Below are positions 2,630 through 9,032 of a stretch of 9,032 nucleotides of DNA, in pieces. A program made the position numbers and the translations under genes. The stretch lies in IMG/VR virus record IMGVR_UViG_2529293040_000001. The stretch is one strand, 5' to 3'. Every line of letters starts with the position of its first letter. Position 1 is the first letter of the stretch. The stretch is from a virus (lineage: Monodnaviria > Loebvirae > Hofneiviricota > Faserviricetes > Tubulavirales > Inoviridae). The notes beneath the pieces are model-generated. The model was not told the origin of the DNA. It worked only from the letters and a program-made list of their open reading frames with translations, and ran no database searches.

Positions 2630-4234
<1,605 letters not shown>

Positions 4235-4246
4235 AAACTCATTTCA

Positions 4247-4417
4247 TCACCAGTAAAAACTAAATGGTTTTACAATTCGACGGAAATCCTGATCGGCTTT
4301 TTCAAGAATAACTGAAACAACATATTCTTCAATGGTTGTATTTTTATTGTAAATAATTCTTTCTATCTGCTCGATAGTGTATTCTGGCAATTTAACTTTA
4401 AATTCTTGAGTAGACAT
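4247..4417 (-). CDS. Hypothetical small hydrophilic protein (56 aa), AT-rich
   Basis: ATG at 4417 preceded by a GAGG Shine-Dalgarno. Translation: MSTQEFKVKLPEYTIEQIERIIYNKNTTIEEYVVSVILEKADQDFRRIVKPFSFYW. The TGA stop at 4249-4247 lies 13 nt before the pIII start. It is below the 60-aa cutoff of the supplied ORF track and I have no similarity evidence for it. Confidence 0.35.
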   Translation of the reverse strand: MSTQEFKVKLPEYTIEQIERIIYNKNTTIEEYVVSVILEKADQDFRRIVKPFSFYW

Positions 4418-4509
4418 AAAACCTCACAAATTAGATTTAAAGCCAATGACGCAACATAACCCACAAAGGGAACCAAACATCATAAAAATAAAATCAAACA
4501 TAAATATCC

Positions 4510-4535
4510 AAAAAAAGGGCGGAATATCCGCCCTT
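4510..4535 (-). terminator. Rho-independent terminator downstream of the major coat gene
   Basis: On the minus strand, a GC stem (GGGCGG / CCGCCC, extendable to 9 bp) with a short loop is followed by a T7 run, 17 nt after the pVIII stop. Ff phages have a terminator at the same place after gVIII. Confidence 0.6.
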
Positions 4536-4551
4536 CCTCATAAAAAACAAC

Positions 4552-4800
4552 TCAGATACTTCTGATGGCTCCCCATACTTTACGAACGCCAGCAAAAGTC
4601 AGATAAACTGTAACTCCTGCAACACCGATAGAAAGAATAACAGCAGAAACAGAAGACATATCAATACTGTTAGTCAATGATGAAAAATCGACTGTACCAG
4701 CAAAAGACGGAGATACAGCAAGAGCAGAAGCAGCGGAAAAAGATAAAGCTGCAACTTTCTTATCAACACCCTTAAAAAAATTGGTCATTTTTGCAAACAT
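4552..4800 (-). CDS. Major coat protein (pVIII-like) precursor
   Basis: A strong AAGGAGA Shine-Dalgarno lies 7 nt before the ATG at 4800. The product has a signal peptide (MFAKMTNFFKGVDKKVAALSFSAASALAVSPSFA) followed by a roughly 48-aa mature segment with an acidic N-terminus, a hydrophobic core (VSAVILSIGVAGVTVYLTFAG) and a basic C-terminus (VRKVWGAIRSI). The supplied ORF begins at an upstream ATG (4827) that lacks a ribosome-binding site. Confidence 0.75.
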   Translation of the reverse strand: MFAKMTNFFKGVDKKVAALSFSAASALAVSPSFAGTVDFSSLTNSIDMSSVSAVILSIGVAGVTVYLTFAGVRKVWGAIRSI

Positions 4801-4840
4801 AATTAAAGTCTCCTTATTAAACTCCAAATTGTGGAAATAA

Positions 4841-4975
4841 TCATGCCAAGAAAAAACAAAATACTGGCAGTGAAAATCCCGTTAAAAACGCCGAGGAATA
4901 AATCCCCGACACATCAGGTATCCCCACGCAAATAGCATTAATTTGCGTGGAAACTGAATCCGAATTAACAGACAT
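4841..4975 (-). CDS. Hypothetical 44-aa protein with a hydrophobic C-terminal half (possible pVII/pIX-type minor coat protein)
   Basis: ATG at 4975, 4 nt after the pV-like stop codon. Translation: MSVNSDSVSTQINAICVGIPDVSGIYSSAFLTGFSLPVFCFFLA. It sits between the ssDNA-binding gene and pVIII, where gVII/gIX lie in Ff. The ribosome-binding site is weak and the call rests on position and hydrophobicity. Confidence 0.35.
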   Translation of the reverse strand: MSVNSDSVSTQINAICVGIPDVSGIYSSAFLTGFSLPVFCFFLA

Positions 4976-4979
4976 AAAA

Positions 4980-7356
<2,377 letters not shown>

Positions 7357-7407: not shown

Positions 7408-7548
7408 ATGCACGACATGATTCTGGATTTACTAATGAAATACCTGATTGCCGGTAGTCTGTTCGGCATGTTTTTGTTCAGCGTCATAACAATAGTGTTG
7501 CCAATCGTCCTGAGGGCACACAATAAAATCAACAGAAGCAACGACTGA
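7408..7548 (+). CDS. Hypothetical 46-aa single-pass membrane peptide
   Basis: ATG-initiated ORF MHDMILDLLMKYLIAGSLFGMFLFSVITIVLPIVLRAHNKINRSND with a roughly 22-residue hydrophobic core and a charged tail. It ends 10 nt before the dif-like hairpin. There is no clear Shine-Dalgarno, so it may not be coding. Confidence 0.3.
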   Translation: MHDMILDLLMKYLIAGSLFGMFLFSVITIVLPIVLRAHNKINRSND

Positions 7549-7557
7549 ATACACAAC

Positions 7558-7651
7558 AGTGCGCACAATGGCGTTATGTATAAAAAGGCCGCTGCGGTGG
7601 AAAGTATCGCAGCGGCCTTTTCAACATAACGCGTGTCACATTATGCGCACC
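7558..7651. other. dif-like XerC/XerD site pair in inverted orientation around a hairpin (candidate attP-derived prophage/chromosome junction)
   Basis: Minus strand 7651-7619 reads GGTGCGCATAA-TGTGACACGCG-TTATGTTGAAAA. The first 14 nt equal E. coli dif (GGTGCGCATAATGT). Plus strand 7558-7584 reads AGTGCGCACAA-TGGCG-TTATGTATAAA. Between them is a perfect 10-bp stem GGCCGCTGCG / CGCAGCGGCC (7587-7617) with an 11-nt loop. Confidence 0.6.
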
Positions 7652-7730
7652 AACATAAACCAAGGGAGAATCCAGTCGTTGGCGGTTCATGGATTGTTCT
7701 GCTCATTAACAACGACCAAAACCCCATATC

Positions 7731-9032
7731 TTACTTAATACCGTATTCTCGGCTTAACCGACCGTGCAACCTCAACACATTGGTTTCAACTGCCGTCACC
7801 ACGTTCTCCGGAAAATCTGTCGGTAATGAAGTCTTCACGTTATCCAGTGCTGCCGGAATCATTCTGGCAAAGTCACTCAGGATTTCATGCATCTGCACTT
7901 CCGGGAATTTCAGCACCTTTGCTGTCGCCAGAAAATGTCGCGGATAAATTTTATCGATTGCCGTTTTTTTGCCTTTGGATGCGTTAAGCCCCATTGCCAG
8001 TTTGAGATCGCTGATGTGTATTCCCGTACCGCCAAGGACCGGAAATGCCGAAATGATGTCATAAAATGGTGTGAGCCGATAACTGCCGCCAGCCTGAATA
8101 AATACGGAGAAGTTTTTTGCATGGCCATCCGTTGCGCCAATCAACCACTGGAAGACCTGAAACTTCATAAAATCATAGCGATCTTTCAGCGCCTCGCTGG
8201 AGCCCATCAAAAAAGCCATAATTTGCGCGATACCGGGGCCTCCATCTGATTCATATTTCACCGATGAAGGTAAACCGAATGTCTGGCACATATCCTCCTG
8301 TGGCAAGCGAAGTAAAACCGTTCGCTCAGTATTCCAACGCCTGTCAAAACGTTCGACCGCTAACGCGCGCACCCTTCCCGCTTTAATGATTTCTGCGTCC
8401 GGAACATTCAACCCGAGTTCTTTCGCCAGCAGCAAACAGTAATACTCATTATCAACGCTTTGGCTAAGATCGAGCGTCGCATTGGGCTGTCTGATTTCGC
8501 CAATCGGCAATTTGATAATGTGCGTCGTTGGCGTTATTCCCTTCGGAATGCACCAGTCATTGCCTATTCTGAGCAGCGCAGTCTTCTCCTGTGCGCCAGC
8601 AACCGAGATGCGAAAGTCATTTTCTTCTCTAATCATGCCTAACGGGATATCTGCTTTATAAGCCGTTAATACTTCTTCAAGTCTGGCTTCAGTAAGCTTT
8701 TCCCATGCCATTATCGGACACGTTACGGTTTCATCTTCGGGGATTAACGTCACGGCACCAACGCTGTCTCGCCCTATTTCTGACAATAAATCAAACGGTT
8801 GTCTGGATTTAGCATGATAACGTTTAACGATCCGGTCACGTACAATCGGGCTATCGGGTAACAGGTTATCGAAGAAGTTAAATACGGCATCAGAGGTGAT
8901 ATTCCCCCTCTGCAATGGCAGCGAAAGTGACAACGGTCTGGCATAACGGCTGGCTAACCACTCAGGTGCATACTTAAAGGTGTGCGCGCCGTTGGCTAAC
9001 TTCGTTAACTCGCCTACCCGCTGGTTGTTCAT
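7731..9032 (-). CDS. hipA: HipA serine/threonine kinase toxin of the HipBA toxin-antitoxin system (N-terminus cut by the window edge)
   Basis: The 433-aa translation (MNNQRVGELTKLANGAHTFKYAPEWLASRYARPLSLSLPLQRGNITSDAVFNFF...LRLHGRLSREYGIK) matches E. coli HipA as I remember it almost along its whole length. The window ends inside the gene, so the first few codons and hipB lie beyond 9032. Confidence 0.93.
   Translation of the reverse strand: MNNQRVGELTKLANGAHTFKYAPEWLASRYARPLSLSLPLQRGNITSDAVFNFFDNLLPDSPIVRDRIVKRYHAKSRQPFDLLSEIGRDSVGAVTLIPEDETVTCPIMAWEKLTEARLEEVLTAYKADIPLGMIREENDFRISVAGAQEKTALLRIGNDWCIPKGITPTTHIIKLPIGEIRQPNATLDLSQSVDNEYYCLLLAKELGLNVPDAEIIKAGRVRALAVERFDRRWNTERTVLLRLPQEDMCQTFGLPSSVKYESDGGPGIAQIMAFLMGSSEALKDRYDFMKFQVFQWLIGATDGHAKNFSVFIQAGGSYRLTPFYDIISAFPVLGGTGIHISDLKLAMGLNASKGKKTAIDKIYPRHFLATAKVLKFPEVQMHEILSDFARMIPAALDNVKTSLPTDFPENVVTAVETNVLRLHGRLSREYGIK

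What the first reader, a model, noticed from the sequence alone, without database searches (positions are those of the whole stretch)
4247..4417. AT-rich 56-aa ORF inserted between the major coat gene and pIII, a possible cargo gene
In Ff-type genomes gVIII is followed by a terminator and then gIII directly. Here a ribosome-binding-site-equipped ORF encoding a hydrophilic 56-aa protein sits in that gap and ends 13 nt before the pIII start, which could couple its translation to pIII. Its AT content is clearly higher than the flanking coat genes. Filamentous phages often carry small accessory genes, so this could be a regulator, an exclusion factor or a pIII expression leader.
Basis: inference. 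Interest (0 to 1): 0.45.

Follow-up and report, generated by a model that had tools for sequence, protein, structure and literature searches.

The report
Small accessory gene before phage pIII
The 56-codon reading frame is a real but dispensable protein-coding gene of an E. coli filamentous prophage, probably a small ribbon-helix-helix regulator, and it is a modest, orphan addition rather than a new kind of system.

Summary
The ORF is real (window 4247-4417, minus strand). It has a GAGG ribosome-binding site and is the most AT-rich stretch of the prophage (29.8% GC).

It is a protein-coding gene, not a leader. A second allele of 58-63 aa (about 46-48% identity) occupies the same slot in related phages. 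The two align without gaps over 54 codons (pN 0.34, pS 0.70, Fisher p = 1.5e-4). The C-terminal motif D-FR-IVKPFSF is kept despite synonymous changes in most codons.

It is accessory. It is precisely absent in L012/L013, where pIII uses the very same RBS and ATG. It is deleted to remnants in L014 and missing from the nearest deposited inoviruses.

It does not lie directly after the coat gene. An unannotated, strongly conserved 25-aa hydrophobic gene (4424-4501) sits between the terminator and ORF56.

The best reading is a small dimeric RHH regulator translated together with pIII. Its target is unknown, and its net negative charge is a caveat.

The reported 13-nt gap to pIII is probably an artefact of a homopolymer deletion. 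In intact copies the pIII ATG lies 4 nt after the stop.

The parts
4247..4417 (-). ORF56: 56-aa accessory protein (MSTQEFKVKLPEYTIEQIERIIYNKNTTIEEYVVSVILEKADQDFRRIVKPFSFYW), predicted ribbon-helix-helix fold with a conserved C-terminal tail
   Evidence: ORF. Identical or near-identical in 27 E. coli genomes and annotated as WP_000107046.1. Second allele at 46-48% identity in the same slot. pN 0.34 versus pS 0.70, p = 1.5e-4. AF2 topology and RHH fold hits.
4422..4425 (-). GAGG ribosome-binding site of ORF56, 4 nt before the ATG. It overlaps the stop codon of orf25 (4424-4426). In relatives without ORF56 the same RBS and ATG start pIII.
   Evidence: Sequence (the junction TGAGGTTTTATG is shared by the window, L002 and L012/L013; the 63-aa-allele loci read TGAGTTTTTATG).
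4424..4501 (-). orf25: unannotated 25-aa hydrophobic core gene (MFDFIFMMFGSLCGLCCVIGFKSNL), immediately upstream of ORF56 and probably translationally linked to it
   Evidence: Present in every relative (80-100% aa identity), including those lacking ORF56. dN/dS 0.06-0.18, and 5 synonymous / 0 non-synonymous differences from L002. Counterparts found in two distant inoviruses.
4508..4535 (-). Intrinsic-terminator-like hairpin (AAGGGCGGA-TAT-TCCGCCCTT) followed by a T-run, after the coat gene. orf25, ORF56 and pIII lie downstream of it.
   Evidence: Inverted repeat I6. RNA fold -18.9 kcal/mol, z = -3.5. Conserved in relatives. The consensus scanner did not flag it.
4246..4251 (-). GGTGAT, a Shine-Dalgarno-like sequence for pIII embedded in the last codon and stop codon of ORF56
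   Evidence: Read from the sequence (TAC TGG TGA TGA A ATG). Its role is inferred.
4232..4242 (-). pIII translation start region. The ATG at 4240-4242 is out of frame in this window because the T run (4233-4237) has 5 T instead of 6. TTG at 4232-4234 is the only in-frame start here.
   Evidence: Alignments with L001/L002. Indel list. Intact 543-aa pIII starting MSFLKNIS in L001.
2630..4234 (-). pIII-like adsorption protein with a signal peptide, a Gly-Thr/Gly-Ser repeat linker and a conserved C-terminal domain; the gene downstream of ORF56
   Evidence: phrog_7187/3942 match to the C-terminal part. Position before DUF2523/pVI, Zot and the secretin.
4552..4827 (-). Major coat protein gene (annotated form 83 aa, from the ATG at 4800), upstream of the terminator
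   Evidence: phrog_2186 E = 4e-14; Pfam Phage_Coat_B E = 0.009. RefSeq annotation.

Best explanation
ORF56 is a genuine, translated accessory gene of an Escherichia-restricted filamentous (inovirus) prophage lineage. It was inserted exactly at the translation start of gene III. It took over the RBS and ATG that pIII uses in ORF-less relatives, and it hands ribosomes on to pIII through a 4-nt stop-to-start gap (a 14-nt overlap in the second allele).

The product is a roughly 6.7-kDa cytoplasmic protein with a ribbon-helix-helix fold. The predicted elements are a strand at about residues 4-10, helix A at 12-25 and helix B from 29. A short, highly conserved C-terminal tail (D-FR-IVKPFSF) follows.

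The most likely mechanism is that of other Arc/CopG-size RHH proteins. Two chains pair their N-terminal strands into a two-stranded sheet that inserts into the DNA major groove, and the dimer acts as a transcriptional regulator (most often a repressor). The protein would be made at low level, together with orf25 and pIII, by read-through of the coat-gene terminator. The tail would serve higher-order assembly or partner binding.

Shown: the gene is real, it is under protein-level selection, it is dispensable, and it sits in this layout.
Predicted: the RHH fold.
Inferred only: dimerisation, DNA binding, regulatory role, target, and expression by read-through.

My sub-confidences are: real protein-coding accessory gene 0.9; RHH fold 0.7; DNA-binding regulator 0.4.
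For: Coding and selection:
- Two alleles at 46-48% aa identity align without gaps over 54 codons, and the other two frames are full of stops.
- pN 0.34 versus pS 0.70, Fisher p = 1.5e-4.
- The C-terminal motif is invariant although most of its codons differ synonymously.
- All 19 cluster members retrieved keep full length, 56 or 63 aa; the ORF56 cluster holds 35 members in all.
- The exhaustive HMMER search finds only these two clusters.

Accessory status:
- Precise absence in L012/L013, where pIII is of the same type (72% identity) and starts at the shared TGAGGTTTTATG junction.
- A remnant (ATG TAA ... GGAGGTTGGTTGTG) in L014.
- The outgroup inoviruses go coat, terminator, orf25-like ORF, pIII with nothing in between.

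Fold:
- The AF2 model (pLDDT 72) has an extended N-terminus plus helices 12-25 and 29-52. The second allele gives the same topology at low confidence.
- Foldseek's top hits are almost all RHH: KacA, TacA, Arc, AmrZ, CopG, PutA, ParG.
- The PDB profile search and hhalign against an Arc-family profile give the same ungapped register, 5-39/40 to Arc 9-43/44. That register places F6/V8/L10 on Arc core positions F10/L12/W14, P11 on Arc P15, and E5/K7/K9 on the Arc base-contacting residues Q9/N11/R13.
Against: - No sequence family match at any curated threshold. Pfam, PHROG, NCBIfam and PADLOC give nothing significant, and the best Pfam hit is HTH_40 at E = 0.026, below its cut-off.
- hhalign against Arc is weak (P = 0.016).
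- The protein is net acidic (pI 5.3) and the RHH part carries about -2 charge, unlike Arc or CopG (the comparison rests on my own knowledge of those sequences).
- No operator-like repeat was found next to the gene. The terminator/orf25 leader is the same in phages with the 63-aa allele and with no ORF56 gene, so it offers no allele-specific site.
- Recent within-clade variation is close to neutral: 9 non-synonymous to 2 synonymous in the 56-aa clade.
- The gene is dispensable.
- There is no expression data.
Confidence: 0.45

Rival explanations
1. The protein has an RHH-like fold but works mainly through protein-protein contacts. Its conserved C-terminal peptide (D-FR-IVKPFSF) would dock onto a conserved partner. 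It might act like an orphan antitoxin or anti-defence factor that neutralises a host toxin, or as an adaptor for a phage assembly or replication protein. DNA binding would be secondary or absent.
For: The tail is the most conserved part of the protein: 11 of 13 positions are identical between alleles, and among the variants retrieved only V49I and one D42E occur within clades. The RHH part has diverged to about 40% identity. The closest structural neighbours are mostly type II antitoxins with an N-terminal RHH and a C-terminal toxin-binding tail. The net acidic charge is typical of antitoxins rather than of Arc or CopG. The gene travels with the conserved structural module across three different replication modules.
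Against: No toxin gene is adjacent; the neighbours are orf25 and pIII. Nothing in the prophage or the ORF56 family hits a defence or toxin-antitoxin model. The tail is only about 14 residues, shorter than typical toxin-neutralising domains. The PDB is dominated by antitoxin RHH entries, so the hit list is biased towards them.
Confidence: 0.25
2. The ORF is a recently acquired, nearly neutral passenger, a selfish or decaying insertion with no current function for phage or host. It persists only because removing it must preserve pIII translation.
For: It is dispensable: L012/L013 lack it and L014 deleted it. Within-clade polymorphism is near the neutral ratio, 9:2 and 6:4 non-synonymous to synonymous. 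Occasional disrupted or fused copies exist: P0003, P0004 and the L015 fusion to pIII. The very low GC suggests foreign origin.
Against: Between alleles, non-synonymous change is clearly suppressed (p = 1.5e-4). The C-terminal motif is kept despite synonymous turnover in most of its codons. All 19 cluster members retrieved, representing several hundred contigs, keep full length. Within-clade substitutions are mostly conservative (V/I, I/L, E/D, A/S).
Confidence: 0.12
3. The ORF is chiefly a translational leader or coupling device that sets the level of pIII synthesis, and the peptide itself is irrelevant.
For: The ORF occupies the original pIII initiation site. It ends 4 nt before the pIII start, or overlaps it by 14 nt. 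The pIII Shine-Dalgarno-like GGTGAT lies inside its last codons.
Against: The amino-acid sequence, not just the frame, is conserved between alleles with saturated synonymous divergence. The peptide is predicted to fold into a defined domain. ORF-less relatives express the same pIII type directly from the shared RBS. A coupling effect can coexist with a protein function but does not explain the conservation.
Confidence: 0.05
4. The ORF is a superinfection-exclusion factor that blocks entry of related filamentous phages.
For: Small accessory genes of inoviruses can have this role (my own knowledge, for example PfsE of Pf phages). The gene sits next to the hypervariable receptor-binding part of pIII.
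Against: There is no signal peptide or membrane segment, and the protein is hydrophilic, so a periplasmic or envelope action is unlikely. ORF56 alleles do not co-vary with pIII N-domain type: the 63-aa allele is found with two unrelated pIII N-domains, and the window's pIII type is found both with and without ORF56.
Confidence: 0.06

Closest known systems
Arc repressor of Salmonella phage P22 (Pfam PF03869) and CopG-type minimal ribbon-helix-helix repressors
   Same: Similar size (56 versus 53 or 45 aa). Same predicted strand-helix-helix topology. Ungapped alignment register 5-39/40 to Arc 9-43/44, with hydrophobic core positions and the Pro before helix A matching. Arc, CopG, PutA and AmrZ are among the structural neighbours. 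Like Arc, it is a small phage-encoded protein.
   Different: No significant sequence similarity (E = 0.83; hhalign P = 0.016; no Pfam RHH hit). No Gly in the inter-helix turn. Net acidic instead of basic. It carries an extra conserved C-terminal tail. It sits in the virion/assembly operon of an inovirus rather than in an immunity region. No operator has been identified.
RHH-type type II antitoxins (KacA/TacA/AtaR, ParD/PrpA, RHH-type MazE, RelB, VapB12)
   Different: There is no cognate toxin gene next to ORF56 or elsewhere in the prophage. The tail is much shorter than known toxin-neutralising domains. There is no sequence-family match.
Omega-like RHH protein ORF13 of Pseudomonas filamentous phage PMBT54 (PMC10534721)
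   Same: It is a small RHH protein carried as a non-structural extra gene by an inovirus. Its authors proposed a regulatory or copy-control role.
   Different: PMBT54 ORF13 is recognisably similar to plasmid omega repressors by sequence; ORF56 is not. As that paper describes it, ORF13 is discussed after the secretin-like gene, not at the coat-pIII junction. There is no evidence of homology.
Ff-type (f1/fd/M13) gene VIII - terminator - gene III junction
   Same: The layout is a coat gene followed by an intrinsic terminator, with gene III and the assembly genes downstream (my own knowledge of Ff; hairpin).
   Different: Here two extra genes lie between the terminator and gene III: the conserved 25-aa orf25 and the accessory ORF56. 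The phage is only distantly related to Ff (secretin about 26% identical).

Membership tests
Ribbon-helix-helix (Arc/MetJ/CopG) superfamily | Strand-helix-helix topology in about 45 residues, with an N-terminal strand of alternating polar and hydrophobic residues | tested here: met
   The AF2 model has an extended 1-11, then helices 12-25 and 29-52. The second allele gives the same topology (low confidence). F6/V8/L10 (I6/L8/I10 in the other allele) alternate with E5/K7/K9.
Ribbon-helix-helix (Arc/MetJ/CopG) superfamily | Structural similarity to solved RHH domains | tested here: met
Ribbon-helix-helix (Arc/MetJ/CopG) superfamily | G-x-S/T/N turn between the helices, with the S/T/N capping helix B and contacting the DNA backbone | tested here: inconclusive
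   The turn is K/Q-N-T/I-T. T28 is invariant and N26 nearly so (N or S), but there is no Gly.
Ribbon-helix-helix (Arc/MetJ/CopG) superfamily | Significant match to a curated RHH sequence model (for example Pfam RHH_1 or Arc PF03869) | tested here: not met
   No RHH family at E up to 10 for any of 8 members. PDB profile search: Arc E = 0.83, KacA E = 1.6. hhalign against an Arc-family profile: P = 0.016.
Ribbon-helix-helix (Arc/MetJ/CopG) superfamily | Obligate intertwined homodimer that binds DNA through the two-stranded sheet | not testable with these tools
   Only monomer prediction was available, and there is no biochemical data. The net negative charge is a caution.
Type II toxin-antitoxin antitoxin (RHH class) | Cognate toxin gene adjacent in the same operon | tested here: not met
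   The neighbours are orf25 (a 25-aa core gene present with or without ORF56) and pIII. The phage proteins scanned hit no toxin or defence model; the secretin gene was not scanned.
Inovirus core (structural/assembly) genes | Presence in all members of the lineage and in outgroup inoviruses | tested here: not met
   Absent in L012/L013, deleted in L014, absent in Inovirus D_HF5_61 and Dulem virus 53. orf25, by contrast, meets this test.
Translated leader / upstream ORF of gene III | The frame or act of translation matters but the peptide sequence is free to vary | tested here: not met
   pN is significantly below pS between alleles, and the C-terminal motif is conserved despite synonymous turnover in most of its codons.

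The most novel reading that the evidence does not exclude
ORF56 and its 63-aa allele would define a new, Escherichia-restricted family of inovirus accessory proteins. A divergent RHH domain would be coupled to an almost invariant C-terminal docking peptide (D-FR-IVKPFSF) that binds a conserved phage or host partner. One possible form is an orphan antitoxin-like anti-defence factor. Another is a regulator that links pIII and assembly-gene expression to a host signal. The gene would have been inserted so that it captures and gates the gene III translation start.
Probability: 0.15. Interest if true: 0.55.

Novelty: new member of a known kind. Interest (0 to 1): 0.3.

Why it matters
If the reading is right, this undescribed E. 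coli filamentous prophage lineage carries an extra small regulator in its assembly operon. The lineage is found in 27 of 5,426 complete genomes, mostly human isolates and often in tandem copies. Filamentous prophages are known to alter host behaviour through small accessory genes, so this is a testable candidate for effects on phage production or host physiology.

The work also shows that the coat-to-pIII junction of these phages is a hot spot for gain, loss and fusion of genes. It further shows that a 25-aa core gene there has gone unannotated. Neither point changes current understanding of inoviruses, so the value is mainly for annotation and for choosing targets.

Tried and rejected
- Word-indexed and exhaustive protein searches found only the two clusters. 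The 1,840-aa hit P0023 is a eukaryotic repeat protein and was rejected.
- Scans of one genome per species found no relative of ORF56 or of the neighbouring pVI.
- The metagenome hit L039 (35% identity) is a chance match of the motif DFRRIVKPF inside a thymidine-kinase-like ORF (recognised by eye from its P-loop and IDEAQFF motifs, not scanned) of a GC-rich bacterium; rejected.
- Pfam, PHROG, NCBIfam and PADLOC gave nothing at curated thresholds. The HTH_40 hit (E = 0.026, 15 bits against a cut-off of 27) was not pursued because it conflicts with the fold results.
- Rfam gave no RNA family in the window.
- Operator hunt: short inverted repeats inside ORF56 (4301-4310/4323-4332) are unremarkable for AT-rich DNA. 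I did not see an obvious counterpart in the other allele by eye, and I did not run a repeat search on it. No allele-specific site exists in the terminator/orf25 leader.
- The promoter scan gave no more sites than shuffles.
- ORF56 is not related to the phage's divergent repressor-like 71-aa protein.
- CUS-1/YpfPhi were considered as the identity of the prophage and rejected. They are described as CTXphi-like in organisation, and no text search found a description of this secretin-encoding lineage; no sequence comparison with CUS-1 or YpfPhi was run.
- The phage collection has no DNA match, and its best secretin match is 41% identical.
- The AFDB fold library was unavailable.
- The canonical 28-bp dif site is not present within 3 mismatches. 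Only a XerC-arm-like GGTGCGCATAAT is visible near 7640-7660.

Full report
CONTEXT

The window carries a filamentous (inovirus) prophage on the minus strand, next to the host gene hipA (7731-9032). Read along the minus strand, the genes are:
- a Rep_trans replication initiator (5325-6551);
- a 111-aa protein at the position of the ssDNA-binding gene (4980-5315);
- a small hydrophobic ORF (4841-4975);
- the major coat gene (4552-4827);
- the gap holding the finding;
- a pIII-like gene (2630-4234);
- DUF2523/pVI (2325-2612);
- Zot/pI (1439-2313, split in two);
- a secretin (1-1260).

Near-identical DNA occurs in 27 of 5,426 complete E. coli genomes, always chromosomal and often as tandem copies. 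There the ORF is annotated as a hypothetical protein. The deposited phage collection has no DNA match, and its best secretin match is only 41% identical. No paper on this lineage was found. CUS-1/YpfPhi, described as CTXphi-like, appears to be a different phage.

THE OBSERVATION

The 56-codon ORF is at 4247-4417 on the minus strand. GAGG lies 4 nt before its ATG. It is hydrophilic and has 29.8% GC, which puts it in the lowest 2% of windows in the prophage. Three details need correcting.

First, it does not directly follow the coat gene. After the coat stop there is a strong hairpin plus T-run (4508-4535; -18.9 kcal/mol, z -3.5). Then comes a 25-codon hydrophobic ORF (4424-4501), whose stop codon overlaps the ORF56 ribosome-binding site.

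Second, the 12-13-nt gap to pIII is specific to this window. Relatives have T6 where the window has T5. That puts an ATG (window 4242) in frame, so pIII starts MSFLKNIS only 4 nt after the ORF56 stop (TGG TGA TGA A ATG). A GGTGAT Shine-Dalgarno-like element lies inside the end of ORF56.

Third, an ORF of this length arises in 7.7% of shuffles of the gap. Length alone therefore proves nothing.

IS IT A GENE?

Yes. Coat-protein relatives at 75-90% identity led to more divergent phages. In every one of them the 25-aa ORF is present. In most of them it is followed 6 nt later by an ORF56-family gene, as one of two alleles. The 56-aa form is in the window and L001-L008. A 58-63-aa form at 46-48% identity is in L009-L011 and L016-L020.

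The two alleles align without a gap over 54 codons at about 60% nucleotide identity, and the other two frames are full of stops. Non-synonymous divergence is 0.34 against 0.70 synonymous (Fisher p = 1.5e-4). The C-terminal segment D-FR-IVKPFSF is identical between alleles although most of its codons differ synonymously. All 19 cluster members retrieved, representing several hundred contigs, keep full length.

It also rules out a sequence-independent leader. Within each clade, variation is close to the neutral ratio (9:2 and 6:4 non-synonymous to synonymous). It is confined to residues 1-41 except for V49I and one D42E, and it is mostly conservative. Constraint on the N-terminal part is therefore currently weak.

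IS IT ACCESSORY?

Yes. In L012/L013 the gene is precisely absent. The same junction TGAGGTTTTATG starts pIII directly (MPNIIKNIS...), and that pIII is of the same type as the window's (72% identity over the N-terminal 343 residues). In L014 only the first roughly 17 nt (now ATG TAA) and the last roughly 25 nt of the 63-aa allele remain.

The two nearest deposited inoviruses have the order coat, terminator, orf25-like peptide, pIII, with nothing in between. The ancestral layout is therefore orf25 followed by pIII. ORF56 was inserted at the pIII initiation site in the Escherichia lineage and later lost in some members.

The structural module carrying it is combined with three different replication modules: Rep_trans; Phage_GPA with an IS110-type gene; and G2P_X_C with an HTH repressor. 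ORF56 alleles do not track pIII N-domain type either.

WHAT IS IT?

Sequence methods give no answer. Pfam, PHROG, NCBIfam and PADLOC give nothing at curated thresholds. The exhaustive HMMER scan of 1.8 billion representatives finds only the two clusters.

By eye, the sequence has the pattern of a ribbon-helix-helix protein. An AlphaFold model (three-sequence alignment, pLDDT 72) gives an extended N-terminus and helices at 12-25 and 29-52. The 63-aa allele gives the same topology at low confidence.

Independently of the model, a family profile finds Arc (E = 0.83) and KacA (E = 1.6) in the PDB. A profile-profile comparison with an Arc-family alignment gives P = 0.016. Both use the same ungapped register, 5-39/40 to Arc 9-43/44. 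That register places F6/V8/L10 on the Arc core positions, P11 on Arc P15, and E5/K7/K9 on the Arc base-contacting residues Q9/N11/R13.

I rate the RHH fold at about 0.7. It is not a member of any curated RHH sequence family.

HOW IT LIKELY WORKS

By analogy with Arc/CopG-size RHH proteins, the most likely mechanism is a homodimer that binds DNA through its paired N-terminal strands and regulates transcription. The protein would be made together with orf25 and pIII from transcripts reading through the coat terminator. The tight stop-start arrangement would also couple pIII translation to it. These steps are inferred, not shown.

Several points argue for caution:
- The protein is net acidic (pI 5.3).
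- No operator candidate was found near the gene.
- The gene is dispensable.

The pattern of a divergent RHH part plus a near-invariant C-terminal tail, together with antitoxin-dominated structural neighbours, keeps a protein-partner mechanism alive. No toxin gene is present to support it.

COMPARISON AND NOVELTY

The closest known things are minimal phage and plasmid RHH repressors (Arc, CopG), RHH antitoxins, and the omega-like RHH protein reported in the Pseudomonas inovirus PMBT54. This is best filed as a new, orphan member of a known fold class in a new genomic position. It is of modest interest.

SIDE FINDINGS

Side findings are listed separately in Noticed in passing. The 25-aa core gene and the evidence that this window carries homopolymer errors are the most useful of them.

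Noticed in passing
window 4424-4501 (minus); L021 6231-6305; L022 6391-6465: There is an unannotated 25-aa hydrophobic ORF (MFDFIFMMFGSLCGLCCVIGFKSNL) between the coat terminator and ORF56/pIII. It is present in every relative (80-100% identity), with dN/dS 0.06-0.18 and 5 synonymous / 0 non-synonymous differences from L002. Recognisable counterparts sit at the same place in two distant inoviruses. It is probably a core virion or assembly peptide (pVII/pIX-like). It was not annotated or called in any record or contig examined here.
   Followed up: partly
window 1555, 2002, 4232, 4850, 6803, 7049: Relative to the near-identical copy L001, the window has six single-base deletions, all inside A or T homopolymer runs. 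They split Zot/pI into two ORFs, put the pIII ATG out of frame, shorten a 57-aa gene to 44 aa and lengthen a 71-aa gene to 94 aa. The pattern looks like homopolymer under-calling in sequencing rather than real decay.
   Followed up: partly
L015 6390-8294; L031; L017: The 3' end of the 63-aa allele contains a G-run just before the overlapping pIII GTG start, and the end varies between copies (FDFGGGREIK, FDFGGGCEIK, FDFGDSCEIK, FDFGG*, FDFGGWS*). In L015 the ORF is fused in frame to pIII, giving a 634-aa product. This could be assembly error or real slippage at the junction.
   Followed up: no
window 2960-3330 (minus), pIII: pIII contains a long (Gly-Thr/Gly-Ser)n linker encoded by a GC-rich repeat. 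Its length varies between copies: an 18-nt indel relative to L001, and pIII lengths of 534-546 aa.
   Followed up: no
window 6852-7136 (+) and 6719-6851: A divergently transcribed small protein (71 aa in intact copies; phrog_2503, unknown function) faces an intergenic region with GCATGCGC-type repeats. This is probably the phage repressor and its operators. The region has no blastn match in L010/L015 although the adjacent Rep gene is about 85% identical, which suggests heteroimmune variants. The protein is not related to ORF56.
   Followed up: partly
L002, L012, L019 versus window, L010, L015 versus L009, L014, L020: The same structural/assembly module (57-aa ORF through the secretin) is joined to three unrelated replication/regulation modules: Rep_trans; Phage_GPA endonuclease plus an IS110-family gene; and G2P_X_C plus an HTH_3 repressor. 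Integration sites also differ: next to hipA, or at ybiB-hcxB in L002/L012.
   Followed up: partly
window 7630-7670: A sequence matching the XerC arm of dif (reverse complement GGTGCGCATAATG...) lies between the prophage and hipA, next to a GC-rich hairpin terminator at about 7585-7625. This is consistent with XerCD-mediated integration at dif. The full 28-bp dif is not present within 3 mismatches.
   Followed up: partly
window 7408-7548 (+): A 46-aa ORF with a clear hydrophobic segment (MHDMILDLLMKYLIAGSLFGMFLFSVITIVLPIVLRAHNKINRSND) lies between the phage repressor-like gene and the dif-like site. I could not tell whether it belongs to the phage or the host.
   Followed up: no
L001 and other E. 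coli genomes: Most carrier genomes hold 2-5 copies of the prophage, arranged head to tail in L001, as is known for CTXphi-type dif-integrated phages.
   Followed up: no
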